Positions 5,414 to 62,883 of a stretch of 64,000 nt of DNA are shown piece after piece. Made by a program: the position numbers and the translations under genes. Within the stretch, counting starts at the first letter, position 1. Every line of letters starts with the position of its first letter. Below the pieces are notes generated by a model. The model was not told the DNA's origin, did no database searches, and saw only the letters and a list, made by a program, of their open reading frames with translations. This DNA comes from Mobula hypostoma (taxonomy: Eukaryota), in assembly GCF_963921235.1 (NCBI RefSeq), contig NC_086097.1, forward strand, positions 55,492,001 to 55,556,000, read 5' to 3'.

Positions 5414-5784
5414 GACACCAAATTCAGCTCAGGTTGTGCAGGGGGCGGGGACATGATCCTATTGCTTGTCAGTGATGTTAACAGGTTGGGCCTTATTAAG
5501 ACAGTGTACCTGAGCAGACACCAAATTCAGCTCAGGTTGTGCAGGGGGCTGGGAGATGATTCTATTGCTTGTCAGTGATGTTAACCAGTTGGGCCTTGTT
5601 AAGACAGTGCACCCGAACAGACACCAAATTCAGATCAGGTTGTGCAGGGGGCAGGGAGATGATTCTATTGCTTGTCAGTGATGTTAACCAGTTGGGCCTT
5701 GTTAAGACAGTGTACCTGAGCAGACACCAAATTCAGCTCAGGTTGTGCAGGGGGCAGGGAGATGATCCTATTGCTTGTCAGTGA
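5414..5784. repeat. Tandem repeat, 103-bp unit, about 3.6 copies
   Basis: GACACCAAATTCAG recurs at 5414, 5517, 5620 and 5723 (period 103); units differ by only a few substitutions. Confidence 0.95.
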
Positions 5785-6199
5785 AGTTCTACATTTCATT
5801 CCTAATTTGGCCTATCCACCTGCAGCCTCCTGCACTGTTAGTTTAAATAACAACAATACTTCATTTCCTTCTGGGCACATTGCACTTTCTCAATTTCAAA
5901 TTCTATAACTTCAAGAACTCTATTCCTCTGTCTATATCCAAACTGGCTTATCCATCCGTGCTTTTAGCTCAGATGCTCCCTCTACAATGGCACACCTGAT
6001 CTTCTTGGTGTGATATAGTCCTCCTGGCCCACAAGCAGGTCAAATAGAAGCCTATTTCTTACGATTAATATAGCATCCTTTGAGTACTCACCACGCCCTG
6101 CAGTAGTGCTGTTGTAGGACAGCATACACTTATGTGATAGCCCTCATTAAACTGTGGTGTCCAGTGAAAAGTACAGAATGTTCCCTGCTTACTATCAGC

Positions 6200-6639: not shown

Positions 6640-9193
6640 TTATCAGGAAATTAGAAATGTGTGCAATAAAGGAACAGCAGTTATAATGGGTGACTTCAAT
6701 CTACATGTAGACTGGGTAAACCGAATTGGTAAAGGTGCTGAGGAAGAGGTTTTCTTGGAATGTATGCGGGATGGTTTTTTGAACCAACATGTCGAGGAAC
6801 CAACTAGAGAGCAGGCTATTCTGGACTGGGTTTTGAGCAATGAGGAAGGGTTAATTAGCAATCTTGTCGTGAGAGGCCTCTTGGGTAAGAGTGACCATAA
6901 TATGGTGGAATTCTTCATTAAGATGGAGAGTGACATAGTTAATTCAGAAACAAAGGTTCTGAACTTAAAGAGGGGTAACTTTGAAGGTATGAGACGTGAA
7001 TTAGCTAAGATAGACTGGTAAATGACACTTAAAGGATTGACGGTGGATATGCAATGGCAAGCATTTAAAGGTTGCATGGATGAACTACAACAATTGTTCA
7101 TCCCAGTTTGGCAAAAGAATAAATCAAGGAAGGTAGTGCACCCGCGGCTGACAAGAGAAATTAGGGATAGTATCAATTCCAAAGAAGAAGCATACAAATT
7201 AGCCAGAGAAAGTGGCTCACCTGAGGACTGGGAGAAATTCAGAGTTCAGCAGAGGAGGACAAAGGGCTTAATTAGGAAGGGGAAAAAAGATTATGAGAGA
7301 AAACTGGCAGGGAACATAAAAACGGACTGTAAAAGCTTTTATAGATATGTAAAAAGGAAAAGACTGGTAAAGACAAATGTAAGTCCCCTGCAGACAGAAA
7401 CAGGTGAATTGATTATGGGGAGCAAGGACATGGCAGACGAATTGAATAATTACTTTGGTTCTGTCTTCACTAAGGAGGACATAAATAATCTTCCAGAAAT
7501 AGTAAGGGACAGAGGGTCCAGTGAGATGGAGGAACTGAGCGAAATACATGTTAGTAGGGAAGTGGTGTTAGGTAAATTGAAGGGATTGAAGGCAGATAAA
7601 TCCCCAGGGCCAGATGGTCTGCATCCTAGAGTGCTTAAGGAAGTAGCCCAAGAAATAGTGGATGCATTAGTGATAATTTTTCAAAACTCGTTAGATTCTG
7701 GACTAGTTCCTGAGGATTGGAGGGTGGCTAATGTAACCCCACTTTTTAAAAAAGGAGGGAGAGAGAAACCAGGGAATTATAGACCGGTTAGCCTAACGTC
7801 GGTGGTGGGGAAACTGCTAGAGTCAGTTATCAAGGATGTGATAACAGCACATTTGGAAAGCGGTGAAATGATCGGACAAAGTCAGCATGGATTTGTGAAA
7901 GGAAAATCATGTCTGACGAATCTCATAGAATTTTTTGAGGATGTAACTAGTAGAGTGGATAGGGGAGAACCAGTGGATGTGGTATATTTGGATTTCCAAA
8001 AGGCTTTTGACAAGGTCCCACACAGGAGATTAGTGTGCAAACTTAAAGCACACGGTATTGGGGGTAAGGTATTGGTGTGGGTGGAGAATTGGTTAGCAGA
8101 CAGGAAGCAAAGAGTGGGAATAAACGGGACCTTTTCAGAATGGCAGGCGGTGACTAGTGGGGTACCGCAAGGCTCAGTGCTGGGACCCCAGTTGTTTACA
8201 ATATATATTAATGACTTGGATGAGGGAATTAAATGCAGCATCTCCAAGTTTGCGGATGACACGAAGCTGGGTGGCAGTGTTAGCAGTGAGGAGGATGCTA
8301 AGAGGATGCAGGGTGACTTGGATAGGTTGGGTGAGTGGGCAAATTCATGGCAGATGCAATTTAATGTGGATAAATGTGAAGTTATCCACTTTGGTGGCAA
8401 AAATAGGAAAACAGATTATTATCTGAATGGTGGCCGATTAGGAAAAGGGGAGGTGCAACGAGACCTGGGTGTCATTATACACCAGTCATTGAAAGTGGGC
8501 ATGCAGGTACAGCAGGTGGTGAAAAAGGCGAATGGTATGCTGGCATTTATAGCGAAAGGATTCGAGTACAGGAGCAGGGAGGTACTACTGCAGTTGTACA
8601 AGGCCTTGGTGAGACCACACCTGGAGTATTGTGTGCAGTTTTGGTCCCCTAATCTGAGGAAAGACATCTTTGCCATAGAGGGAGTACAAAGAAGGTTCAC
8701 CAGATTGATTCCTGGGATGGCAGGACTTTCATATGAAGAAAGACTGGATGAATTGGGCTTGTACTCGGTGGAATTTAGAAGATTGAGGGGGGATCTGATT
8801 GAAATGTATAAGATCCTAAAAGGATTGGACAGGCTAGATGCAGGAAGATTGTTCCTGATGTTGGGGAAGTCCAGAACGAGGGGTCACAGTTTGAGGATAG
8901 AGGGGAAGCCTTTTAGGACCGAGATTAGGAAAAACTTCTTCACACAGAGAGTGGTGAATCTGTGGAATTCTCTGCCACAGAAAACTGTTGAGGCCAGTTC
9001 ATTGGCTATATTTAAGAGGGAGTTAGATATGGCCCTTGTGGCTACGGGGGTCAGGGGGTATGGAGGGAAGGCTGGGGCGGGGTTCTGAGTTGGATGATCA
9101 GCCATGATCATAATAAATGGCAGTGCAGGCTCGAAGGGCCGAATGGCCTACTCCTGCACCTATTTTCTATGTTTCTATGTTTCTATGTTTCTA
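6640..9193 (+). mobile_element. Young 5'-truncated CR1 LINE with nearly intact ORF2
   Basis: ORF 6620-7021 (APE endonuclease C-terminal part: GDFN, ILDWVL, SDH) continues in frame, after one TAA, into ORF 7022-9088. 3' tail (TTTCTATG)x3 at 9163-9193. Confidence 0.96.
7022..9088 (+). pseudogene. CR1 ORF2 reverse transcriptase region, 688 aa open
   Basis: Motifs KSPGPDG, NYRPVSLTS, YLDFQKAFDKV, GVPQGSVLGP, KFADD, RDLGV, RPHLEYC. Confidence 0.93.
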
Positions 9194-16970: not shown

Positions 16971-17869
16971 TTAGCCTTCATTAATCAAAATACAAGAGAT
17001 GGGATGTTATGTTGAAGTTGTATGAGACATTGGTAAGGCCTAATATGGAGTATCGTGTGCTGTTTTGGTCACCTACCTCCTTGAAAGATGTAAATAAGGT
17101 GAAGCAGTACAGAGAAAATTTGCAAGGATGTTGCCAGATCAGGAAGACCTGAGATACATGGATGGTTGGGGCATGGAGAGCTATGGTCCGGTGCGGGTCG
17201 ATGGGAGTAATCAGATTAAATGGTTTGGCGTGGGCCAAAGCATCTGTTTCTGTGCTGTACTTTTCTATGACTCTGTGACTCTATATATAGATGTCAGGAA
17301 ACTCAGCACCTTCATTCAAGCATGTGCAAATGTGCTGTGGCCAAAGGTACTAAAAGATACTCCCTATACTTAAATGTTTAATTCTTCATAAGAGTCTAAG
17401 AATCTTAAAATTCTTTGGTATTAATGTTGGGAAGACAGTTTACTGAACATTTACTACCTTACCCCTGACACAGGTTTCAATGGAGAGAGACAACTACAAA
17501 TTTTCAGGTAATCTCTCTTTCTTAAGCTTAAGTACATACATAAGTTTTCCATTTAAAGTAAACGTAATTGAAAATTAATTAATTGTTAAATTGTGTAGGA
17601 GTGTTTTGAATGACAAATGCATTCACGTATTTGCAAATTATTGGAGAGCATTGGCAGTTTGTTAAGGTTAAGTCCATAGCTTTGCTGCCAGTCAAAATAT
17701 TTCTGTGGGTGGTGTATATTCAGTCCTTGCTTTGAGTTGGCGTTTATGCCAGAAGGTAGTGAACTGGGCAGGGCTTCAGCAACTAGGAAATGGCTGCTTG
17801 CAAATCCACTAAAGCTAGTTACTCACCTAACAGGTAGTGTGCTGTGAGCAAAGTTGGTTTATTAGTGTC

Positions 17870-17996
17870 TGACGAAGGGTCTCGGCCTGAAACGTCGACT
17901 GCACCTCTTCCTACAGATGCTGCTTGGCCTGTTGCGTTCACCAGCAACTTTGATGTGTGTTGCTTGAATTTCCAGCATCTGCAGAATTCCGTTTGT
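17870..17996 (+). mobile_element. Penelope-derived mini-element with hammerhead core and 16-bp TSD
   Basis: TTGGTTTATTAGTGTC at 17854-17869 and 17997-18012; insert begins (C)TGACGAAGGGTCTCGGCCTGAAACGTCGAC and matches the 3' end of the GIY-YIG-bearing element at about 62 kb. Confidence 0.85.
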
Positions 17997-19790: not shown

Positions 19791-20901
19791 AGATATTCCA
19801 TTGCCAGCAGTTAAGAGATGTTGGCAGTGTAAAGGATATATGTTGATTGTTTATTTTGCTGGTGAATGAAGAGGAGATAGCATTAGTGATATTATTACAA
19901 TATCTTGGAAGTTCCTATTGTTATAAATCCTGATTTCGTAAGCATTTGGAGGCAGAACTCACTCCTGCATTGTAGACCATGAACTGTGTAGTAGACCTTG
20001 ATTTGCAGACGTCCTTTCCTTCAGTTGATCAAAGGCTGACCTGGCCGCAGTAAATTTCAACAGTACTCCACATGGAAATATGCCATGAACCATTACTGTA
20101 GGAGCGCAGCATTGAACAATGGCAGCAGGTCATTAGAGGGCCTTTGTCTTGTGAGATCCATTGTCTTGTCCGTTTCAATGAATAATTAGATTCTGAGTTT
20201 AGCTTACAAGTGTGCACAAGTACAAGCATTATATGCCTACTGTAGCTTGGCTACTGAGGTGTGGGCAATATTTGGTTCTAGATTGCTTAACCCACTATTG
20301 CTACAGTTTCTTATAGTTCTGAAATATCTTACAGGTGATGTGCAGCATCATGGTGAGAATAGTTAAACAAAATGTCTCGACAATGACACAGTCTTGTTTG
20401 ACACTCATCTTCACTGACAGTTGCTGCGTTTTATAGGCACGTTTAGGATCATGACTTGCATGTCTTCAGGAAGCAAACATAAGATGGAGAAGAATTTCTA
20501 TGGGCAGCTGAAGATAACCAGTCTGAAGCAACATTTGAGGCAGGCTCTGTTAGGGGGGTTATTAATTAAGCAGTCTTCTTAATGGAAGGAATACAGCAAT
20601 TGAAGCTATTCAGGGTCAGTTAGGATGCTAAGATGAATGGACCAAAGGAAGTATCTGGGGAATTTCCATCTCATGTCAGACAAAGAGCATGATAAACTAA
20701 TTGAACTCATGGGGCAACTTTCTTACAGTATGAGTTATGCCATGCCATTATTCAGTATACCATGTCAATTCAATAATTACAGATTACAACATAATCAAAA
20801 AGAAAACAACAGGAATTCTGCAGATGCTGGAAATTCAAGCAACACACATCAAAGTTGCTGGTGAACGCAGCAGGCCAAGCAGCATCTGTAGGAAGAGGTG
20901 C

Positions 20902-20937
20902 AGTCGACGTTTCAGGCCGAGACCCTTCGTCAGGACT
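20902..20937 (-). ncRNA. Minimal type I hammerhead ribozyme motif, copy 1
   Basis: Minus strand AGUC-CUGACGA-A-GGGU(CUCG)GCCU-GAAAC-GUC-GACU: conserved core, stem I AGUC/GACU, stem II, palindromic ACGU in place of stem III, GUC cleavage triplet. Confidence 0.8.
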
Positions 20938-20959
20938 AACTGTCTGTAGGAAGAGGTGC

Positions 20960-20995
20960 AGTCGACGTTTCAGGCCGAGACCCTTCGTCAGGACT
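20960..20995 (-). ncRNA. Minimal type I hammerhead ribozyme motif, copy 2
   Basis: Identical to 20902-20937. Confidence 0.8.
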
Positions 20996-23900
20996 AACGA
21001 ATCTAATAATCAATTAGACTAATAATAATAATCAAAAAGATTAACAAAAAGACTAATAATCAAAAAGAGATTTGTTGCTGATGACATCCCGACCAAAAGA
21101 TGTTACTTGAGGTTCAAACAAAATCCCTTAAATTTGATTAATAACTGAATGGCACAGTCACACAGCTTTTCTTGTGCACCAGCTTTGAAAGGTATTAGTG
21201 CTCAGAATCCCGGACTATTCAGCCTATGGATATAGTTTAGTTGAGTATTCATAGACAGCTATCAGTCAGCTCGGTGAAAGTAATGCAATCTGACAATGCA
21301 CTAGATACAATGGTTGGTGAATTATTTTTGTCTTGTGACAAAAGCTATATGACTGTAATTTTTCAGATTAAAAATTCATCACTGCCAAGAGAACAGCATT
21401 TCATTTTACATATCTAACAGTTTGGTATTCAGAAAATGCTTATTGCTTTGAACAACTAGTTAAGACAGTGTGTGTTTGACAGCTGAAAAGATGTGGTACT
21501 TCCCTGCCAGGCTTCTTCATAGTTTCTTGCCAGCTGACACTTTATAAAGTGTGCCTTACTGCTGGAATTACTAGGCGATTCAAAACTAAGTTCTTCTGCC
21601 AATCAACAGCATTTCAGATACTACTGTCTCGCAGAATGGTTTATGGATCATATAAAGCATAATACAATTTCCACACTTCAAATTTTATTTATAGCAGTGG
21701 TAGCAATTTTAAGAGCTTGGTAGGAGAACACTACTTGGCATGATTTACATAGAATTAAAATCCTTTGAGCAGATATATTCGTTGCAATCTATTTCTCAAT
21801 GCCATATTGCAAATTAATAAACTGCATTGTACGATGCATTGCTTCATAAAATTTGCAGTTGGATAAAACTTAAACTTACTTTTTATTTATTTTATTATAA
21901 CACTTAACTGGGAATGGACCTTGTAAAGGTCAAGTGTCACTTTAAATTTTAATAAATCCTGCCAATATCCATGACTGTTTTATCCTTTAAGACTTAGCTA
22001 AAATAGAATGTCAGTCATTCCTTTGACATAGAGTATTCTACTCTTCCAATTTTTAACACCTTGGCTGAGCACAGACAGTGATAATAATTTACTGTTCCTG
22101 GTAGATTTAAGAGGTTTTTACAGGTAGAAAACATTTCTTATTATACATTATAAAATACCTTTAGGCTTTGAAATATGGAAATATGCATTTGAAATCTTAT
22201 TTTACTGCTCAATTTTAATAGAAAGTATCAAATAGCTTGTATTTGCATACAATTATACTAAAATTAGAGTACAGAAATATTTTATTCAGACTGCATTGGG
22301 GAAACATGTTTGAAATGGGAAAAATCAAGAAATATTTGATGGATCCAAAAATTTGCTGAAGTCAATCATCTCAGAATAACTTACTAATTGTTGCAGTAGG
22401 TTTCCCATCTCCAGCTCTTTAAATTAACACATAGCCTCTGTGAGGTGGGGATGCTGCTAGATGTAATATTAGTGAGAATGGTTGGACTTTATCAAGGGGA
22501 AATAAGTGTGGGGTGAAGAACAGTGGTTTATTTCACATTTGCTTCTTGTGATGGGATGGGGAATTACAGGTGTCAATCAATCACGCTAGGAGGAAACTAC
22601 TCCATACTTCCCACCGCAGAGTGCTAATTGCCCACCTCATGAATCTGACTCTTCTTTTTACAATGATTGATACACTGGATAAATAATGTGACTTCTTTTA
22701 AATGAGCTCTCAGATTTGGAATACTGCCGAAATATTTTTGCTCATGCATAATGCGAATATCACAGCATCATTTATAAAGTTACAACATCATGCAAATTCA
22801 CGGCACAAACATGGATCAAGTCAGTTTCTGTTTACGTGCACTTGTGTTTTCCCTAGTGGGACGTTGGCAAGGAAGGGAAAATTACTCGTAGGAGCTGCCA
22901 CCTCTGTTTCTAGTTAAATGAGCCTTGGGCTGACAAAGGAGTGACTGGAAGCTGAAGTTGTAACACAGTCCGTTACAGTTTCTACTGAAGTGACACCATT
23001 TTCGTACTGGTTGCTTAGAATTACTGTATGCAATAATCATAAATGCTTGAAAAATGCCTTTGGCATGCAGTAATTAGGAAAGAACTGGATAAAGTTAGAC
23101 ATTAAATATGTTGAAATATTACCCTTGGTAACGAGGAATGTAATTATTTCTATCCATTATATTCAGATAATCCTTATCGAATGATGCAATACCTATTTAT
23201 AAAAAATTTAACAAATGGCATAATGTGTCAGCAATTAAATTTTACATTTGCTACATGCACTTTCTCTAACAGTAGTTTAAATATCTGACAACAATAGACT
23301 TTGATATTAACTCTGAAAACTATAAAAAAGATTGGAGCTCAGCTGAACTAAATATATTTTCAAAGTAAGTTATGCATTTTAAAAGTAATTTTATTGATAC
23401 AGTGCAGAACAATTCTGATGTGATCCAATGTGCACATGGACTTCTGTCACCATTGTTTTAAGAGAACGAAAGCCTGTTTTACTCAAAGCTTAAAGTGATG
23501 TTTTCAAATAATACTAGAGAATAAGTGATGAATTGTTAATTTTTTTTTAAATTTCCTTTCTGCTGAATTACTCTTCTGCTGATCATTCTCCATGTCCTAG
23601 ATTGACATGTGTCCTACTGCCTGACATCTACCAATAATTCTAAAAATATCTGATGATTAGATTGCTTGCCTTGATAGTTAACTCCTTTTGCCTTCTTCCC
23701 TTGCCTTAGTTGCTAGTGCCATTGCCCCTCACTTCCTTCTTTCTTGATGGTTATAAGAGCATGTACTTCAGTCTATGATTCTAGCAGACTGTATTTGATA
23801 TACAAAGTCAGCATGCAGAACCTTTACATTATTTTACACATTCTTTTGATCTTTTATTCTGTTACAGATTCTTAGCTGTGGGATTTCCTGAATGTCAGCT

Positions 23901-42059: not shown

Positions 42060-44185
42060 CTAGTCTCTGTATCTAGCTGGAAGTTTGACTTGTCTCCCAG
42101 ACCGTGTGTGATACAACTGTGACTGTGCTTGTCCTTCATCCGTGTCAGTCTCTCGAGTGGCCTCTGTGTCTTTGCGGTCTGCATCACTCTTGGTGTTGTT
42201 TGTTTCCATGTCTGTATATGTGGAAATGTCCTGTGCATCTGTACGTGGAAACTCCCTCTCGCCTGTCTTCAGCAGATGCTTCCTGTTCCTCCTGTAGACT
42301 CTTCCATCCGGCGTGTGAACTATGAAGGACCTTGGTTGCTGATGTCTGTTCACAACCACAGCTGGTTGCCAAGTGTCTCCTCTCCGTATTCTGACATTTT
42401 CACCTGTATGCAGATCTGGCAACTGTCTTGTATGTCTGTCATAGTAGCTCTTTTGCTTTATTTGCTTGTACTTTTGCTTGTCATGTACTTGAGCATTACC
42501 TCCAGGAGTCAGTAGAGTTGTGGATGTTGGCAGTTTGGACTTCAGACAACGTCCCATCAACAGCTGCGCAGGAGAGAACCCCACACCCTCAATCGGTGTG
42601 TTGTGATATTCAAGCAGAGCGATGTAAGGGTCACCGTTGCTGCTTTGTGCCTTCTTGAGCATGTTCTTGACAGTTTGTACAGCTCTCTCTGCTTGTCCAT
42701 TAGACTGAGCGTGCCCTGGGCTGGAAGTAACATGTTGAAATTCCCAGCTTTCTGAGAACTCTCTGAACTTACCACTGGCATATTGTGGACCATTGTCACT
42801 GACGACAATATCTGGAATCCCATGTCTTGTGAATGTTGACTTCATTGCGGTAATGACACCTCGACTGGACGTGTCACTTAACTTGGTGATCTCCGGATAT
42901 TTTGAATAGTAGTCCACACAAAGCAGATATTCTGCACCATTGTAGTGAAAGAGATCTGTGTCAGTCTTCTCCCATGGTCTTCCTGGTAGTGGATGGGGAA
43001 GCAAAGGCTCTCTTGGTTTGCTGTTTTGGTTTTCATTACAGACAGCACACTGAGACACAATGTCTTCTATCTGAGTTGACATGCCTGGCCAATAGAGAAT
43101 GTCTCTTGCTCTTTCTTTATATTTCACTATCCCCAGGTGTGACTCATGAATCCTGTTGAGCATTTCCTGTCTCATTTGGTTTGGTACGATGAGTTTTGCC
43201 ATTTTGAACATTAGTCCTGATGCATAGCTGATTTCCTCTTTAAATGTCCAGTATTTCTGCATTTCCTTTGGAACATCTTTTCTTTCTGTTGGCCATCCAT
43301 TCATTGTAATGGCTCTTGGCATTTGCATTTCAGGATCAACTGCAGTTGCTTTCCTGAACATGTTCAATTTCTCCTCAGAGATGGGTAGCTGAGATGTAAC
43401 CCAGTTGACCTCCAGCTCTCTTCCTAGCAACTCTTGCTTTTGCTCTTTGAGGTAAGCACGGCTCAAAGCATCAGCGATGTACAGTTCTTTTCCTGGCTTA
43501 TAGGTGACTGTGAGAGTGTACCTCTGTAGCCTGAGAAGCATCCTTTGCAGCCTCATAGGAGCTTGGTAGAGTGGATTTTTGAAGATGCTCTCAAGTGGTT
43601 TGTGATCACTCTCAACCTGGATTTCTTTGCCATATACATATTGGTGGAACTTCTCACACCCATAAACTATGGTGAGTAAATCCTTCTCGATTTGAGCATA
43701 TCGGCATTGACAGTCCGTAAGTGCTCATGATCCATATGACACAGGCCTCCCATCCTGCAGTATAACAGCTCCTATTCCCTCCAAACTGGCATCAACAGAC
43801 ATCGCCACCGGTTTATTGACAACATAGAAATTGAGTGCTGGTGCATTGGTAACCAGCTGCTTTAATGTGTCAAAACTTTTCTTTTGTTCGCCTTCCCAAT
43901 GCCATTCAGTGTTGCTCTCTAGTAGCGTTCGGAGTGGAGCGCTGACCTCTGATAAGTTGGGAATGAATTTGGCAAGATACTGTATCATGCCCATGAACCT
44001 CAATAGTTCTTGCTTGTCTTTGGGTGGTGGTAGCTGTACCACAGCTCTGACCTTTTCATCATCTGGTTTTAGCCCATCAGCACTGAGTACATGACCTATG
44101 TATTTGATCTCTGTAGTTCTGATCTGACATTTACTTTTGTTCAGTTTTAGGTTGTACTCACGTGCTCTCTCCAGGACTGGACTCT
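42060..44185 (-). pseudogene. pol: Gypsy pol remnant: RT C-terminus, RNase H, integrase
   Basis: ORF 43725-44198 (LKLNKSKC, IKYIGH, VDAS) and ORF 42060-43556 are in the same frame, separated by one TGA. Integrase HHCC (HESHLG...CAVC) and DDE (TDLF, SDNGPQY, NGQAERAV). Confidence 0.92.
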
Positions 44186-44865
44186 CTCTTGAGTCCAACT
44201 ATCTTCATCCTCCATCTCTGCATTGTTGATATTCTTGATGCATACCTCCTGTTCCACTTCAACCGTGCCAATGAACATGTCACTGTTGCCCTCACTCTGT
44301 TTCACAGCATGCATTTTCCTCGCGTGCTCCTTCAATTTGCACATCTTTGCAAAGTGATTTCTTTTCTGGCATAACTTGCATGTCTGACCAAAGGCTGGAC
44401 ATTTTCTGTATCCATGTTTATAACCACATCTGTTGCAGTTAACTTCCTTTTGATCATCCTGTGGAGCTGTCTTTGTCCTACTCTTGTCAGATTTCATAGT
44501 TTTTATTTTGTGCACTTCAATCTCTTCATTGAGCACTTTAACCTGACTTGACATGATCTCTCTGGCACGGCAAACATCAATCACCTTTCCTAATGTAAGA
44601 TCCATCTCTCTCAATAGCCTGCCTCTCACCTGATCATCTTGTATGCCGCATACAATCCTGTCACGTATTAAAGAGTCATGCAGTTGTCTGAACTCACAGC
44701 CTCTTGCCTTGTTCTTCAAATCTGTTACATAGGTGTCTATGGTCTCTATTGGTCCTTGAGCCCTCATGAAAAACATATGTCAGATGTACAGTAGTTTTTT
44801 TCTCAGTTCACAGTAATCTTGAAACTTTTTCTTCAACACTTCAATTTTATCTTGCTCATCATCTT
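44186..44865 (-). pseudogene. gag: Gypsy gag C-terminal part with two zinc knuckles
   Basis: ORF 44147-44776: LIRDRIVCGI, CNRCGYKHGYRKC, CKLCQKRNHFAKMC. Confidence 0.88.
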
Positions 44866-47800
44866 AGACCATAAGACCATAAGACAAAGGAGCAGAAGTA
44901 GGCCATTCGGCCCATCGAGTCTGCTTCGCCATTTTATCATGAGCTGATCCATTTTATCCTATTTAGTCCCACTGCCCCGCCTTCTCACCATAACCTTTGA
45001 TGCCCTGGCTACGCAGATACCTATCAATCTCTGCCTTAAATAAACCCAATGACTTGGCCTTCACTGCTGCCCGTGGCAACAAATTCCATAGATTCACCAC
45101 CCAATGACTAAAAAAATTTTTTCGCATTTCTGTTCTGAAAGGGCGCCCTTCAATCCTGAAGTCATGCCCTCTCATACTAGACTCCCCCATCATGGGAAAC
45201 AACTTTGCCACATCCACTCTGTCCATGCCTTTTAACATTCGAAATGTTTCTATGAGGTCTCCCCTCATTCTTCTAAACTCCAAGGAATACAGTCCAAGAG
45301 CGGACAAACGTTCCTCATATGTTAACCCTCTCATTCCCAGAATCATTCTAGTGAATCTTCTCTGTACCCTCTCCAACGTCAGCACATCCTTTCTTAAATA
45401 AGGAGACCAAAACTGCCCACAGTACTCCAAGTGAGGTCTCACCAGCGCCTAATAGAGCCTCAACATCACATCCCTGCTCCTATACTCTATTCCTCTAGAA
45501 ATGAATGCCAACATTGCATTCGCCTTCTTCACTACTGACTCTACCTAGAGGTTAACTTTAAGGGAATCCTGTACGAGGACTCCCAAGTCCTGTTGCATCT
45601 CAGAACTTTGAATTCTTTCCCCATTTAAATAATAGTCTGCCCGTTTATTTTTTCTGCCAAAGTACATAACCATACACTTTCCAACATTGTACTTCATTTG
45701 CCACTTCTTTGCCCATTCTTCCAATCTATCCAAGTCTCTCTGCAGACTCTTCGTTTCCTCAGCACTACCGTCCCCTCCACCTATCTTCGTATCGTCAGCA
45801 AACTTAGCCACAAAGCCATCTATTCCATAATCCAAATCGTTGATGTACAATGTAAAAAGAAGCAGCCTCAACACTGATCCCTGTGGAACACCACTGGTAA
45901 CCGACAGCCAACCAGAATAGGATCCCTTTATTCCCACTCTCTGTTTCCTGCCAATCAGCCAACGCTCTATCCACGTATGTAACTTTCCTGTAATTCCATG
46001 GGCTCTTATCTTGTTAAGCAGCCTCATGTGTGGCACCTTGTCAAAGGCCTTCTGAAAATCCAAGTGTACAACATCCACTGCATCTCCCTTGTCTAGCCTA
46101 CTGGTAATTTCCTCAAAAAATTGTAATAGGTTTGTCAGGCAGGATTTTCTTTTAAGGAATCCATGCTGAGTTCTGCCTATCTTGTCATATGCCTCCAGGT
46201 ACTCTGTAACCTCATCCTTGACAATCGACTCCAACAACTTCCCAACCACCGACGTCAAGCTAACAGGTCTATAATTTCCTTTTTGCTTCCTTGCCCCCTT
46301 CTTAAATAGCGGAGTGACATTTGCAATCTTCCAGTCCTCCGGAACCATGCCAGAATCTATCGACTTTTGAAAGATCATCGCTAATGCCTCCACAAATTCC
46401 ACAGCTACTTCTTTCAGAACACGAGGGTGCATTCCATCTGGTCCAGGAGAGTTATCGACCTTTAGCCTATTCAGCTTCCTGAGTACTTTCTCTGTCGTAA
46501 TTGTGGCTGCGCACACTTCTCTTCCCTGCCACCCTTGAGTGTCCGGTATCCTGCTGTCTTCCTCAGTGAAGACTGATGCAAAATACTTGTTCATTTCCTC
46601 TGCCATCTCCTCATCTCCCATTACAATTTCTCCAGTATCATTTTCTATCGGTCCTATATCTACTCTCACCTGTCTTTTACTCTTTATATACTTGAAAAAG
46701 CTTTTAGTATCCTCTTCGATATTATTTGCTAGTTTCCTTTCATAGTTAATCTTTTCTCTCTTAATGACCTTCTTGGTTTCCTTTTGTAAGGTTTTAAAGA
46801 CTTCCCAATCCTCTGTCTTCCCACTAATTTTTGCTTCCTTGTATGCCCTCTCCTTAGCTTTAACTTTGGCTTTGACTTCTCTTGTCAACCACGGTTGCAT
46901 CCTTTTTCCACTCGAAAATTTCTTCTTTTTTGGAATATACCTGTCTTGCACATTCCTCATTTCTCACATAAACTTCAGCCACTGCTGCTCTGACGTCTTT
47001 CCCGCCAGTGTCTCTTTCCAGTCAACTTTGGCCAGTTCCTCTCTCATGCCACTGTAGTTTCCTTTACTCCACTGAAACACCGACACATCAGATTTCGGCT
47101 TCTCTTTTTCAAATTTCACAGTGAACTCAATCATGTTATGATCACTGCCTCCTAAGAGTTCCTTCACCTCAATCTCTCCAATCACCTCTGGTTCATTACA
47201 CATTACCCAATCCAGTACAGCCGATCCCCTAGTGGGCTCAACAACAAGCTGTTCTAAAAAGCCATCTCGCAGACATTCTACAAATTCTCTCTCTTGAGAT
47301 CCAGTGCCGACCTGATTTTTCCAATCTACTCGCATGTTAAAATCCCCCACAATTATCATAACACTGCCCTTCTGACAAGCCTTTTCTATTTCCAGTTGTA
47401 ATTTGTAGTCCACATCCCTGCAGCTGTTTGGAGGCCTATAAATAACTGCCATCAGGGTCCTTTTACCCCTGCTATTCCTTAGCTCAACCCATAAAGATTC
47501 TGCACCTTCCGATCCTATATCACCTCTTTGTAATGATTTAATATCACTTCTTACCAATAAAGCCACGCCTCCCCCTCTGCCTACCTTCCTATCCTTCCGA
47601 TACACTGTGTATCCTTGGACATTCAGCTCCCAGAGACATGCATCCTTTAGTCAGGTCTCAGTGATGGCCACAATATCATACCTGCCAATCTGTAGCTGTA
47701 CAACAAGATCATCCACCTTATTTCTTATGCTGCGTGCATTTAAGTACAACACCTTTAAGTACAAGACCAGTATTTGATACTTTTTGCTTTGATTTCACTA

Positions 47801-48843
47801 CAACTTTATTGCACTGCAACTCATCCCAATGGCTACACATTTGCCCCATCACCTGCCTGTCTTTCCTGACATCTTTACTGCTCACTATCTTAGATTTATT
47901 TCTGTTTTCCCCTTCCTCCGTTCTATCATTCCGGTTCCCATCCCCCTGCCAAATTAGTTTAAACCCTCCCTAACAGCTCTATTAAACTTTCCCGCCAGGA
48001 TATTGGTCCCCTTTGGGTTCAGGTGTAACCTGTCCTTTTTGAACAGGTCATACTTCCCCCAGAAGAGATCCCAATTATCCAAGAATCTGAAGCCCTGCCC
48101 CCTACACCAGTCTCTCAGCCACGCATTCATCTGCCTGATCTGACTACTCTTGCCCTCGCTAGCATGTGGCATAGGTAGCAATCCCGAGATTACTACCCTG
48201 GAGGTCCTGCTTCTCAGCTTCCTTCCTAACTCCTGGAAATCTCTCTTCAGGACCTCCTCCTTTGTCCTATCTATGTCATTGGTACCAACATGTACCAAGA
48301 CAGCTGGCTGCTCACCCTCCCCCTTTAGAATATTCAGGACCTGATCCGAGACATCCCGTACCCTGGCACCTGGGAGGCAACACACCATGCGGGTATCTCT
48401 ATCAGGCTCACAGAATCTCCTGTCCATTCCCCTGACTATGGAATCCCCCACGACTACCGCATTTCTCTTCACCCTCCTTCTCTCCTGCACAACAGCGCCA
48501 GGCTCAGTGCCAGAGACCCGGTCACCGTGGACGTCCCCTGTCGGATCATCCCCCTCAACAGCATCCAGAACAAGATATTTGTTGCTGAGGGGGACAGCCA
48601 CCGGTGTGCTCTCCACTATCCGGGCATTTCCCTTCCCTCTCTTGACAGTGACCCAGTGTTCTGACTCCTGTAGCCTAGGGATGACTACTGACTCCTGTAG
48701 CCTAGGGATGACTACCTCCCTGTAGCTCCTGTCTATCACCTCTTCACTTTCCCTGATAAGCACTAGGTCATCAAGCTGCAGCTGCAGATCCCTAACACGG
48801 TCTCTGAGGAGCTGCAACTCGGTGCACCTGGCGCAGATGTGGC
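44866..48843 (-). mobile_element. Near full-length CR1 (truncated within ORF1) inserted in Gypsy gag
   Basis: 6-bp TSD CATCTT at 44860-44865 and 48844-48849; (AGACCATA)n tail; ORF1 esterase; ORF2 segments 46964-47605, 45545-46960 and 44963-45442 share one frame and are broken only by stops. Confidence 0.95.
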
Positions 48844-49045
48844 CATCTTGGAAGACAAACGTGTTGCAAACCTTTATTGCCTCTTCCCCTGCCGCATGCA
48901 GAAACGTAGCACATTGCACTTCCTCCGTCTTTTCAGCTACGCTGGTAGTGGTGCAAAACAGCTCAAACCTCTGGATCCATATTTTCCAGTTCTCAGCAAG
49001 ATTACCTTGTAGGCTTAAACTTGACCGTGGCTGTAACTGTGACAC
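47954..49045 (-). CDS. Chimeric ORF: Gypsy Gag N-terminus fused in frame to CR1 ORF1 (zipper + SGNH esterase), 363 aa; expression unknown
   Basis: About residues 1-68 are Gag-like (GNLAENWKIWIQRFELF...ATFLHAAGEEA); the rest is CR1 ORF1 (HICARC, VVGDSIVR, HVGTND, DRLHLN). The annotated start is GTG, not ATG. Confidence 0.5.
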   Translation of the reverse strand: MSQLQPRSSLSLQGNLAENWKIWIQRFELFCTTTSVAEKTEEVQCATFLHAAGEEAIKVCNTFVFQDGHICARCTELQLLRDRVRDLQLQLDDLVLIRESEEVIDRSYREVVIPRLQESVVIPRLQESEHWVTVKRGKGNARIVESTPVAVPLSNKYLVLDAVEGDDPTGDVHGDRVSGTEPGAVVQERRRVKRNAVVVGDSIVRGMDRRFCEPDRDTRMVCCLPGARVRDVSDQVLNILKGEGEQPAVLVHVGTNDIDRTKEEVLKRDFQELGRKLRSRTSRVVISGLLPMPHASEGKSSQIRQMNAWLRDWCRGQGFRFLDNWDLFWGKYDLFKKDRLHLNPKGTNILAGKFNRAVREGLN

Positions 49046-49083
49046 CTTTTACGTGTCTTCTCTTCCTTTTTTTTCTTCGCGAT

Positions 49084-58771: not shown

Positions 58772-61700
58772 GCTGTGTACATACATCTATTGATGCTTCT
58801 GGACACACCTTCAGTGAAGTTCCTGGAATCATTGGGTGTTTCGGGTCTTCCAACATCATACAACCTCCTCCAGGTGACCCAGCCGGGGCTGATCAGACCC
58901 CAGCTTGTGTCCAGATGGCTAGCTGCTTATGACTCCATGGCTCCCCTCTTTTGAGCCACAGCCATCTTGAGGCCCTCTCTGCCGCATCGGTGGTACTGCG
59001 GATGGCTCTCCTCTTCCTCTCTCCCTCGATGCCCAAAATGCTAAAGGCTCTAACTAAAGAATGGGCTATGAATCCCCTACAACCAACCTCCACTGGGAGA
59101 CATCTCGCTCTCCATCCAGCCTGCTGACAGATGCTGACCAGTCCTGCGTACTTGGAGAGCTTCCTTTCAAAGGCCTCTTCCAAGCTATCTTCCCATGGGA
59201 CTGTCAGCTCCAGCAGGACCACTTGCTTAGTCGACTCAGACACTGGGACAATGTCTGGTCGCGGGGTGGTGGCTGCGATATGGTTGGGGAACTTCAGCTG
59301 CCCTTCGAGGTCCACCAACAGCTGCCAGTCCCTTGCAGAGGTCAGGATGCCTGCAGATGTTCTTTTGGCAGGTATTGGCTGCTCCCCAGCTCTGACAAAG
59401 GCAATGGTCTGCTTGGAGGGTCGGGACGACTTCGCCCACTCAACTCCTGCGCTGACGGCTTCAGCGATGGTCTTCAGGACCTGATCATGCCTCCACCTGT
59501 ACCGTCCCTCACCAAGTGCCCTTGCGCAGCCGCTGAGGATGTGCTCCAGGGTTCCTCGCTTGGAGCACAGTGGGCACGCAGATGACTCTGCCTTGCCCCA
59601 TGTGTGCAGGTTTGATGGGCTTGGAAGCACATCGTCCACTGCCTGGATGAGAAATTGAATGCGGCGTGGTTCGGCTTTCCAAAGATCAGCCCAGGTCACT
59701 TTCCTCTCAACCGCATTCTCCCATCTTGTCCAACCCTGTTGCTTCATTCCCACCGCCTTGCAGGCTCTCATCTCCTCCACTACTGCTGTCACCTCCTCCT
59801 GAACTAGACGACGCCTTTCCTTCCCTCTGGTGTCCATTTGGGGAATTGGAAAGGATCCTAGCCCAGCTCGGCCTCGTGTGACCACTCCCACCAGCCTCCT
59901 ATGACGCAGCCGTGCCTCTGACTCCTGAACAGCTTCCTCTGCCCTCCACTTCCTACCAGTACTTACTTGGATCCCTGCTCTAGCCACCTTCGGGTCACTT
60001 GAGTCCCTATACTGTAGCACTTCTCTGGCTCTTGTTACCTTGAATTCTTCCTCCAAGGATTTGAAGGGCAGTTGCAGTTTGTTGTGGTGTCCATAGAGTG
60101 CGATGCTGCTCAGGCTCTTTGGCAGCCCCAACCATCTCCTGAGGTGGTTGCTAACCCTCCTCTCTAAGGTTTCGACTGTCGAGATTGGAACTGCATAGAC
60201 GAGGAGGGGCCACAGGATTCTGGGAAGAATGCCATACTGATACACCCAGGCTTTAAACTTCCCAAGTAGGCCAGACTTGTCCACAGATTACAGCCAGCCA
60301 TCCAACTCGGTGCATGTTGCCTGAATGGATGTTGTGTCCCTTAAAGAGCTGTCAAAAACTTTGCCTAAGCTCTTGACTGGCTTTTCTGTGATGGTTGGGA
60401 TGGCTGTGCCTGCGATGCTGAACCGGAACTTGTTCTCCACCTTCCCTTTCCTCAGCACCATCCATCTTGATTTGGCAGGTTTGAACCACATTCGGGCCCA
60501 CTCCACCAGCTTTTCGAGCCCTTGCAGAATCCCCCGGCAGCCTGGGACTGATTCTGTGGTGACTGTGAGGTCATCCATGAATGCCCTGATAGGTGGTTGC
60601 CATTGAGCGGAATTCATTCTGGGTCCTCTGCACTCTAGTTCAGCAGACTTAGTGAGCATGTTCATGGCTAGGGAGAACAGTGTCACTGAGATAGTGCACC
60701 CTGAAATGATGCCCATCTCCACCTTGTGCCAGGTTGATGTAATTTCTCCTGAAGAGACCCTCATCCTGAAGTTGCTGTAATAATCAGCGATAAGGTCTCT
60801 GATTCTGCTGGGGACGTGATATTTGGTCAGAGTGAGCTGCACCAGCTCGTGCGGAATGGAGCCATATGCATTTGCCAGGTTGAGACACAACACTGACAGG
60901 TTGCCCTTGTTCTCTCTGGCCTCCCTGATGAGCTGTGTCACCACACCGATGTGCTCCAGACAGCCCAGCATCCCTGAAATGCCACCCTTCTGGACTGATG
61001 TATCAATATAGGTGTTCTTTGCTAGGTAGGTGCACAGCCGGTTAGAAACTTCACTGAAGAAGATCTTTGCCTCGACACACAGCAGGGAGATGATGCGACA
61101 CTGATCTATCTGGGTGGCGTTTTCCTCCTTCGGGATCCACACCCCTTCAGCCACTCTCCACTGTTCTGGGAATTTCCCCCTTCTCCAGAAGGTTCTCAGG
61201 ATCTTCCACAGATGCAGCAGGAGTTTGGGGCAGTTCTTGTACACTGTATACGAGGTGTTGCTTGGTCCTGGAGCCGAGCTTGCCCTTGCTTTGCGGACAA
61301 CCTCTCTGACTTCCTTTAGTTGCAGCTCTGACATGTCGAACTGCACATCCGGTTCAGGTGGGTCTATTGGGATGTCGCACTCTCCCAACTCCTGCTCTCT
61401 TTCAGGATCATTATATATCTTCCTCAGATGTTGGTCTATGTCTTCCTGCGAACAGGCCAGTTTCCCACTGCGCTTCTCCCCCAGCAACTCCTTGGTGAAC
61501 TTGAAGGGGTTGGTGATAAAGGCAGCACGTTTTCGAGCCCTTTCACGACGCCGCCTCCAATGCCACTCTGCCTGGCGGAGGACCCTGATCTTCTTTCGTA
61601 GTATGCACATCAGCTGGGCCAAGCCAATGCGCTCCTCTTCTCCTGCCTCCTTGTATTGGGACTTCAGCGCTTTCATCTCCTGCCTGATGTTGTGGATCCT

Positions 61701-61960
61701 CAATGCTCTTTGGTTCTTCGAGTAAGATGTTTTGGAGCCTTCCTTCTCCTCTTCTCCGAACCGTTCAGCGGCGATACTGACAATCATTGTTGTCATGGCT
61801 TGCAGCTTCCTATCAACCCCTCCCTTCACTGTTGCCTCCAGAATTTGGTTAACATCTTCATCAATCTGCTTCCACAGTGAAGTCATGTTAGCTGCAGGCC
61901 ATTTGATCCACCTCCTGTTAGACTTCATGTTAGAGGGATTAGTTTGCAACGCTTGGAGTC
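58772..61960 (-). mobile_element. HERO-like non-LTR retrotransposon (RT + restriction-like endonuclease), 5'-truncated
   Basis: ORFs 60288-61949 and 58893-60284 share one frame, separated by one TAA. RT motifs APGPS, LNLANAYGSIPH, IRAFMDDLTV; CCHC CPLC...EHILSGC; RWRHDQVL; RPDIV...LLELTVPWE; PVEVGCRG. RLE superfamily is secure; the HERO clade call is by motif recognition. Confidence 0.88.
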
Positions 61961-62883
61961 ACACACATCAAAGTTGCTGGTGAACGCAGCAGGCCAGGCA
62001 GCATCTCTAGGAAGAGGTGCAGTCGACGTTTCGGGCCGAGACCCTTCGTCAGGACTAACTGAAGGAAGAGCTCGTAAGAGATTTGAAAGTGGGAGGGGGA
62101 GGGGGAGATCCAAAATGATAGGAGAAGACAGGGGGGAGAGGGATGGAGCCAAGAGCTGGACAGGTGATTGTCCTTTTCCTTTTCCTTCTCCCTGGGTCTC
62201 CTGTCCCATGATCCTCTCATATCCCTTTTGCCAATCATTATATACACACATTCTTTCTCTCTCTCTCCTTTTTCTCCCTGTGTCCCTCTGACTATACCCC
62301 TTGCCCACCCTCTGGGTTCCCCCCGCCCCCTTTTCCTTCTCCCTGGGCCTCCTGTCCCATGATCCTCTCATATTCCTTTTGTCAATCACGATGCAGACTG
62401 GGAGATCGTTTTGCTGAACACCTATGCTCTGTCCGCCAGAGAAAGCAAGATCTCCCAGTGGCCACACATTTTAATTCCACATCCCATTCCCATTCTGATA
62501 TGTCTATCCACGGCCTCCTCTACTGTAAAGATGAAGCCACACTCAGGTTGGAGGAACAACACCTTATATTCCGTCTGGGTAGCCTCCAACCTGATGGCAT
62601 GAACATTGACTTCTCTAACTTCTGCTAATGCCCCACCTCCCCCTCGTATCCCATCCATTATTTATTTATATACACACATTCTTTCTCTCTCTCTCCTTTT
62701 TCTCCCTCTGTCCCTCTGACTATATCCCTTGCCCATCCTCTGGGTTTTTTCCCCCCCTCTCCCTTTTCCTTCTCCCTGGGCCTCCTGTCCCATGATCCTC
62801 TCGTATCCCTTTTGCCAAGCAGCGTTCACCAGCAACTTTGATGTGTTTTGCTTGAATTTCCAGCATCTGCAGAATCCCTTGTG
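61961..62883. mobile_element. Scrambled Penelope-like (Neptune-type) element 3' region
   Basis: GIY-YIG C-terminus RLGDRFAEH...VATHFN...LEEQHLIFRLGSLQPDGMN (62389-62628, +); inverted hammerhead-bearing segment 61961-62170; reiterated 3' UTR pieces. Confidence 0.88.
62021..62056 (-). ncRNA. Minimal type I hammerhead ribozyme motif
   Basis: AGUC-CUGACGA-A-GGGU(CUCG)GCCC-GAAAC-GUC-GACU; best-paired copy in the window. Confidence 0.82.

What the first reader, a model, noticed from the sequence alone, without database searches (positions are those of the whole stretch)
20885..20998. Exact head-to-tail dimer of a minimal hammerhead ribozyme (58-nt period)
Seen: two identical minus-strand motifs AGUC-CUGACGA-AGGGUCUCGGCCU-GAAAC-GUC-GACU, 58 nt apart, inside a TSD-flanked non-coding mini-element. 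Established: minimal type I hammerheads of Penelope-like elements have only a palindromic stub (here ACGU) for stem III and are thought to cleave best as dimers; tandem hammerheads in retrozymes release monomers that can circularise. Inference: this locus could fold a dimeric hammerhead in cis and excise a 58-nt RNA. It may be a very small retrozyme-like unit, or the trace of reverse transcription around a small circular template.
Basis: partly seen in the sequence, partly recalled or inferred. Interest (0 to 1): 0.72.

Follow-up and report, generated by a model that had tools for sequence, protein, structure and literature searches.

The report
Stuttered Penelope retrotransposon hammerhead end
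The doubled ribozyme motif is real, but it is the shortened end of a very common jumping gene whose first 56 bases were likely copied twice during insertion, one of well over a hundred such stutters in this genome, and likely not a self-propagating 58-base RNA circle.

Summary
The 58-nt tandem with two identical minimal hammerhead motifs is real. It lies in a 265-nt insertion with a 13-nt target duplication, absent in two related organisms. The insertion is the 5'-truncated end of a Penelope-like element (parent: RT + GIY-YIG; 45,139 exact hammerhead matches genome-wide). Tandems like it recur at over 150 loci with many periods. The exact junction occurs at 2 loci, with different alleles and targets. 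It lies 21 nt past the predicted cut, and the unrepeated PLE tail is present, so the template was likely linear. The double-hammerhead fold is predicted about 19 kcal/mol above the ground state. Best reading: the element's 5' end was copied twice during integration. The scan reached this reading before on other DNA. The family pattern is more interesting than the locus. Stutters are 7-27 times more frequent over the hammerhead than over neighbouring segments, both copies tend to share a 5' end, and seams pile up at hairpin-sized periods (38-40 nt) and at the cut site (20 loci, against 0-4 at four nearby positions). That may record in vivo cleavage, but microhomology confounds it.

The parts
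20791..20803 (+). Target-site duplication, left copy (13 nt)
   Evidence: Sequence; empty site in two other organisms
20804..20942 (-). 5'-truncated 3' end of the Penelope-like element, family positions -9 to +129 (0 = C of CUGA): hammerhead plus tail
   Evidence: 96.6-98.6% identical over 138-145 nt to the ends of the RT/GIY-YIG parent in L121 and L122
20902..20937 (-). Downstream minimal hammerhead motif; predicted cut after 20906
   Evidence: activity untested
20804..20889 (-). PLE tail with predicted stem-loop; family 3' ends cluster near +92..+100 and +129..+131, the likely RT start sites
   Evidence: role inferred from PMC11167929
20943..20998 (-). Second copy of the element's 5' end, positions -7 to +48 (56 nt); seam at 20942/20943
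20960..20995 (-). Upstream minimal hammerhead motif; predicted cut after 20964
   Evidence: activity untested
20999..21055 (.). 57-nt filler made of short pieces of the target/TSD and of the element end (repeated abortive priming)
   Evidence: Greedy parse; part of the insertion by the empty site
21056..21068 (+). Target-site duplication, right copy (13 nt)

Best explanation
This is a 5'-truncated insertion of an abundant Penelope-like retrotransposon, and its hammerhead-bearing 5' end was likely copied twice while it was being integrated. Shown: parent element, TSD, empty site, tail, filler, and the genome-wide class of such tandems. Inferred: the element's endonuclease cut an AT-rich target; RT started in the tail and copied a linear RNA, intact across the cut site, to a 5' end or strong stop at -9 (likely near a transcription start at the hammerhead's 5' edge); synthesis then restarted, giving a second copy from +48 to -7, followed by several short false starts on target DNA (the filler). 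Sequence cannot tell a first-strand jump back on the RNA from a second-strand restart at the cDNA end. The RNA of this locus is predicted to fold mainly as an inactive rod, so little cleavage is expected without protein help.
For: Parent with HHR-ORF(RT, GIY-YIG)-HHR, 3.7 kb apart. 45,139 exact motif matches. Of 76 tandem loci with periods 35-72: 71 keep the tail, 52 have a 5' inversion, 54 have a TSD of 11 nt or more. Both copies share the +45 allele in 36 of 40 informative loci (about 41% expected from allele counts). The upstream copy's 5' end tracks the restart: within 3 nt in 60 of 110 loci, longer in only 9; 20 of 31 against 3 of 79, p 2e-11. Successive seams differ within L033, L034 and L132, which one circle would not give. 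In a tail-anchored sample 24 of 98 5' ends lie at -6..+7. Tandem rate is 124/45,139 over the hammerhead, 35/85,845 over the tail and 4/39,608 upstream. Active fold -13 against MFE -32 kcal/mol.
Against: Loci share junctions more than a shuffle predicts (18 pairs against 3.8), which could mean some tandems propagate; several sharing pairs differ in diagnostic alleles and none shares a 3' flank. The two copies here are identical, so a recent DNA-level duplication is not excluded. The energy model ignores tertiary contacts and Mg2+, and I had no known active dimer as a control. Pfam scores of the parent are below gathering. No read spans the seam.
Confidence: 0.7

Rival explanations
1. A single-copy insertion was duplicated later at the DNA level (replication slip or repair), helped by the imperfect 12-nt direct repeat that flanks the hammerhead.
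For: The repeat gives a 54-nt register seen at a few loci; ours is 54+4. Long arrays such as L127 carry alternating variants, which shows later DNA-level growth.
Against: The duplicated piece begins at the insertion's 5' end, here and across loci; filler from false starts abuts it; neighbouring segments are duplicated 7-27 times less often.
Confidence: 0.12
2. A working, very small retrozyme: the locus is transcribed on the minus strand, folds as a cis dimer, releases a 58-nt RNA that circularises and spreads.
For: Two complete motifs in tandem meet the operational definition of Li et al. 2026 (units 51-972 bp). A nested active fold can be drawn. Seams at the cut site in about 20 other loci suggest the family can cleave.
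Against: The junction is at 2 loci with different alleles; no tail-less dispersed 58-nt arrays among the 76 loci; active fold about 19 kcal/mol above MFE; position 11.1 is U, so the conserved G10.1-C11.1 pair is absent; min-HHR dimers cleave poorly in vitro (PMC4209133) and 1 of 9 dimers cleaved in Li et al.
Confidence: 0.06
3. RT ran round a pre-existing 58-nt circular RNA.
For: Exact repeats; one other locus has the same seam; some loci hold 4-8 copies with one seam.
Against: The tail lies outside the unit, so copying began on a linear template; the seam is not at the cut; the other locus has a different allele; seams vary within some loci.
Confidence: 0.05
4. Two separate PLE insertions, one into the other, as in the 130-nt class.
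For: Loci with a 130-nt period look like insertions into an older pLTR, some with different alleles in the two copies.
Against: No second tail, no inner TSD, identical alleles.
Confidence: 0.04
5. Assembly artefact.
For: No listed contig of the probable source run spans the seam.
Against: The class has a structured seam spectrum at over 150 loci, and the same seam recurs with another allele.
Confidence: 0.03

Closest known systems
EN+ Penelope-like element insertions, Neptune/Nematis type (PMC8557442, PMC3846280; passages read)
   Same: RT then GIY-YIG, CX2-5CxxC linker, pLTR with hammerhead, 5' truncation, partial tandems, inverted 5' pieces, optional 30-40-bp tail, TSD.
   Different: The repeat here is only 56-58 nt and ends inside the tail; I found no description of hammerhead-sized stutters.
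Minimal type I hammerheads of PLE pLTRs (Cervera and de la Pena 2014, PMC4209133; parts 1-2 of 4 read)
   Same: Core boxes, 4-5-bp stem I, unpaired base before stem II, palindromic stub for helix III, dimer requirement.
   Different: Partners are 58 nt apart, not about 3 kb; G.U or A-U in place of G10.1-C11.1.
Non-LTR retrozymes (PMC7229834, passages; Li et al. 2026, 10.64898/2026.07.22.740005, parts 1-3 of 5)
   Same: Tandem type I hammerheads derived from PLE pLTRs; Li et al. report units from 51 bp and one chondrichthyan genome, and propose local birth from a PLE end.
   Different: No family of the unit, PLE tail retained, no evidence of expression or circles; characterised retrozymes are 150-450 nt.
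PAc Poseidon element in vitro (PMC11167929; parts 1-2 of 4 and passages)
   Same: Two internal RT starts giving the tail; uncleaved RNA as main template; AT-rich targets.
   Different: No restarted products reported in the parts read; no RNA-seq reads ending at the cut were found there.
DRT2 and telomerase repeat synthesis (PMC12039810, passages): works-like comparison only
   Same: Tandem cDNA from a linear RNA by repeated jumps between fixed boundaries.
   Different: Here it is rare (about 0.3% of copies), imprecise and without known function; not a member.

Membership tests
EN+ Penelope-like element (derived insertion) | Parent ORF with RT and C-terminal GIY-YIG endonuclease | tested here: met
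   L122 2128-3726: RVT_1 E 0.0015, GIY-YIG E 0.0005, both below Pfam gathering; motifs located
EN+ Penelope-like element (derived insertion) | ORF flanked by direct pLTRs with a hammerhead | tested here: met
   HHR at 5549 and 1828 in L122, 7157 and 3656 in L121, same strand as the ORF
EN+ Penelope-like element (derived insertion) | Optional 30-40-nt tail, 5' truncation, inverted 5' pieces, TSD | tested here: met
   3' ends in two clusters about 35 nt apart, 31 of 100 with an inverted partner; 13-nt TSD
Neptune/Nematis clade | CX2-5CxxC linker between RT and EN | tested here: met
   Motif at residue 399 of the L122 frame; feature from PMC8557442
Neptune/Nematis clade | Placement in an RT phylogeny | not tested
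   No tree built
Minimal type I hammerhead | CUGANGA and GAAA cores, NUH site, stem I, palindromic stub | tested here: met
   Sequence
Minimal type I hammerhead | G10.1-C11.1 pair | tested here: not met
   U at 11.1 in both copies; the C variant exists in the family (62022-62056)
Minimal type I hammerhead | Dimeric active fold is accessible | tested here: inconclusive
   About 19 kcal/mol above MFE; model lacks tertiary energy and no active control was folded
Minimal type I hammerhead | Self-cleavage | not testable with these tools
   Indirect only: seams at the cut site in other loci
Non-LTR retrozyme | Two or more tandem units each with a complete type I HHR (Li et al. 2026 definition) | tested here: met
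Non-LTR retrozyme | Unit forms a dispersed family that moves on its own | tested here: not met
   2 loci with this seam, different alleles, own TSDs, tail kept
Non-LTR retrozyme | Expressed as linear and circular monomer RNA | not testable with these tools
   Only contigs available; no RNA holder listed

The most novel reading that the evidence does not exclude
The locus is one member of a genome-wide record showing that this PLE re-copies a short template bounded by its own hammerhead. The transcript starts, capped, at the ribozyme's 5' edge; the copying enzyme reaches that end and restarts at preferred points: the base of stem I (38-40-nt units), the base of the tail stem (this locus), or the RNA end made by hammerhead cleavage. 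That would be genomic evidence that minimal PLE hammerheads cut in vivo, a telomerase/DRT2-like repeat synthesis by telomerase's sister enzyme, and the route by which retrozyme seeds are born.
Probability: 0.35. Interest if true: 0.7.

Novelty: new member of a known kind. Interest (0 to 1): 0.35.

Why it matters
The locus itself is ordinary: a by-product of PLE integration. The class matters more. Whether PLE minimal hammerheads cut in vivo is open (PMC8557442 calls their function unclear; PMC11167929 found no reads ending at the cut), and how tandem retrozymes arise from PLE ends is proposed but not shown (Li et al. 2026). The seam spectrum gives a direct test: an in vitro TPRT assay with wild-type and core-mutant RNA should lose only the cut-site seams. 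It also warns that pipelines calling any two tandem hammerheads an active retrozyme will count integration stutters.

Tried and rejected
Rfam gave nothing useful. Expression: no RNA holder listed; four possible RNA runs gave contigs on repeats only and cannot show strand, ends or level; no verdict. Host gene: none identified; ORFs of 170 aa or more in the window are mostly retroelement-like by eye, short exons were not searched. Spliced templates: a splice-acceptor-like motif lies just 5' of stem I, but copies ending there share no upstream exon; back-splicing does not fit the seams (by inspection). Cap G in simple insertions: six copies flush with their TSD show no extra G, two of them ambiguous, so cap support comes from tandem seams only. 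My statement that no seam lies at the cut was a pattern artefact (the pattern required GAC after GUC); corrected. The TSD column was wrong (offset bug) and was redone; one search stopped before its last tally. The 130-nt class is not a retrozyme family but looks like insertion into an older pLTR. Lunse et al. 2017 is not held; I saw its title only. Supplements of Li et al. 2026 (bioRxiv) are closed and may list similar units.

Full report
Numbering. Family positions count from the C of CUGA (0) on the hammerhead strand; the predicted cut lies between +27 and +28. Counts marked 'by eye' were read from tool listings.

Observation. The tandem is exact: period 58, 20885-20998, with the 35-nt motif twice on the minus strand and none in 100 shuffles. 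Contigs of two other organisms join 20790 to 21056 with 13 shared letters, so the insertion is 265 nt with a 13-nt TSD. It holds 139 nt of element end (20804-20942, -9 to +129), a second copy of -7 to +48 (20943-20998) and 57 nt of filler made of short target and element-end pieces. No listed contig spans the seam, so reads do not confirm the duplication.

What the element is. The motif has 45,139 exact matches in the 3.48-Gb genome, the tail motif 85,845. Two fetched loci hold the parent: hammerhead, broken ORF with RT and GIY-YIG regions, hammerhead, 3.5-3.7 kb apart. Pfam matches are weak, below gathering, but the order, the CX2-5CxxC linker and the pLTR layout fit Neptune/Nematis-type PLEs (PMC8557442). 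The insertion is 96.6-98.6% identical to the parent's ends. In 100 tail-anchored copies from the start of contig C1 (98 resolved; both halves of inverted insertions counted, so not independent), 3' ends fall in two clusters about 35 nt apart, the PLE tail signature (PMC11167929). Of the 5' ends, 24 lie at -6..+7 and 2 at +28 (p 1.5e-8 against uniform over -60..+56).

Is the 58-nt unit a family? No. A gapped pattern found 88 tandem matches at 76 loci with periods from 35 to 72; 4 of 88 have period 58, and the exact seam occurs twice with one mismatch allowed. The other locus has a different allele and its own 14-nt TSD. I fetched all 76 loci: 71 keep the tail, 52 carry a 5' inversion, 17 have three or more copies, 54 have a TSD of 11 nt or more. 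Longer gaps add 42 and 51 matches, partly the same arrays counted across two units. Against this reading, loci share seams more often than a shuffle predicts (18 pairs against 3.8); none of 17 pairs compared shares a 3' flank and several differ in alleles, which points to preferred restart sites, though propagation of a few tandems is not excluded.

Folding. The MFE of the dimer is a rod (-32.1 kcal/mol, z 0.21) in which core GACG pairs with CGUC and the stem II arms swap between copies. The constrained double hammerhead scores -12.7 to -13.3; five other tandems show gaps of 17-29 kcal/mol. The model lacks tertiary and Mg2+ terms and I folded no known active dimer, so this lowers but does not exclude activity. 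Both copies have U at 11.1. Published min-HHR dimers cleave poorly (PMC4209133), 1 of 9 retrozyme dimers cleaved (Li et al. 2026), and the PAc hammerhead needed protein (PMC11167929).

Mechanism. Across 110 tandem loci (all fetched loci in which a chain was found; 25 of the 51 short-period loci and 12 of the 29 rows had been fetched, the short-period ones chosen by seam type), the upstream copy's 5' end lies within 3 nt of the downstream copy's in 60, is shorter in 41 and longer in 9. The copies share the +45 allele in 36 of 40 loci. Seams differ between successive units in three loci. This fits one template with a fixed 5' end copied more than once at integration. Here the ends are -9 and -7. 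The filler records further false starts. A first-strand jump and a second-strand restart give the same sequence and cannot be separated. The tail lies outside the repeated unit and the cut site is intact in both copies, so the template was likely linear.

Family pattern. With gaps of 0-30, tandems number 124 of 45,139 over the hammerhead, 35 of 85,845 over the tail and 4 of 39,608 over an upstream segment, ratios 6.7 and 27 (the denominators differ in pattern length). Of 57 short-gap matches, 45 have periods 38-40, the hammerhead hairpin plus 2-4 nt; 20 fetched examples are separate insertions whose seam follows the subfamily allele. Short untemplated inserts before restarts at -3..-10 end in G in 16 of 19 cases, 9 of them among loci picked for their seam type, and in 7 of 10 further loci (by eye). 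With initiator-like words placing an A at -8 and -4 (consensus recalled, not from a call), this suggests capped 5' ends there; simple insertions did not show the extra G. Seams by last base kept, in loci, by eye, after dropping point variants and one array: +24, 4 (27 of 32 rows dropped); +25, 2; +26, 10 (19 of 29 dropped); +27, 20 (9 of 29 dropped); +28, 0 (1 dropped); +29, 3 (2 of 7 dropped). The peak sits on the predicted cut. Confound: the upstream region is pyrimidine-rich, so 1-2-nt microhomology with UC draws seams to +27; 8 of the 20 restart at -4 or -5, where there is none. I rate this as suggestive. This locus is not in that class; its seam (+48) lies at the base of the predicted tail stem, another favoured zone.

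Known and new. Structure and parts are known PLE features; tandem hammerheads derived from pLTRs are described as retrozymes, with units from 51 bp (Li et al. 2026). By their operational rule this locus would be called a retrozyme, but it fails the test of an independently moving unit. Four searches found no paper on hammerhead-bounded stutters or cut-site seams; the library lacks most subscription journals. Earlier notes of this scan reached the same reading for other loci. Papers seen: PMC4209133 parts 1-2 of 4; Li et al. parts 1-3 of 5, supplements closed; PMC11167929 parts 1-2 of 4 and passages; passages of PMC7229834, PMC8557442, PMC6765202, PMC2377424, PMC12039810, PMC3846280.

Verdict. 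Real, explained, ordinary as a locus: a new member of a known kind. Interest 0.35, mainly for the testable family-level seam spectrum.

Noticed in passing
G000 loci (L280-L290 and others): About 20 loci whose tandem seam falls exactly at the predicted hammerhead cut, against 0-4 at four nearby positions and 10 one base before it; possible record of in vivo cleavage, confounded by microhomology.
   Followed up: partly
L260-L279, L240-L244: Recurrent 38-40-nt tandems equal to the hammerhead hairpin; seam depends on subfamily allele, often with an untemplated G; up to 5 copies in one insertion.
   Followed up: partly
G000:C67:45319296-45321446: About 2 kb array of 44-45-nt units made of a partial hammerhead (lacks the 3' strand of stem I); a minisatellite grown from such a stutter.
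   Followed up: no
L123 (8 x 62 nt), L042 (7 x 61 nt), L127 (7 x 61 nt): Longer arrays inside single insertions; L127 alternates two variants, showing later DNA-level expansion.
   Followed up: partly
L245-L251: 130-nt period class that looks like PLE insertion into an older pLTR about 33 nt upstream of the hammerhead core.
   Followed up: partly
L016 about 1480-1509 (family positions -30..-1): Branch-point-like word, pyrimidine tract and CAG just 5' of stem I, overlapping two initiator-like words; in D. virilis Penelope an intron ends at helix I (PMC4209133).
   Followed up: partly
window 17869-17990 (+): Simple truncated copy of the same PLE starting at the hammerhead core, flanked by a repeat of about 16 nt.
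   Followed up: no
window 58893-62470: PLE copy (hammerhead at 62022-62056, C variant at 11.1) next to broken ORFs of a non-LTR retrotransposon with a restriction-like endonuclease region, by eye.
   Followed up: no
window 42060-44779 (-); 7022-9088 (+); 45545-49048 (-): Gypsy-like gag/pol ORF pieces and CR1-like LINE ORFs, named by eye.
   Followed up: no
window 5414-5788; 48661-48715: 103-nt tandem of 3.6 copies and an exact 27-nt duplication.
   Followed up: no
window 21118: One related organism carries a 20-nt local duplication here.
   Followed up: no
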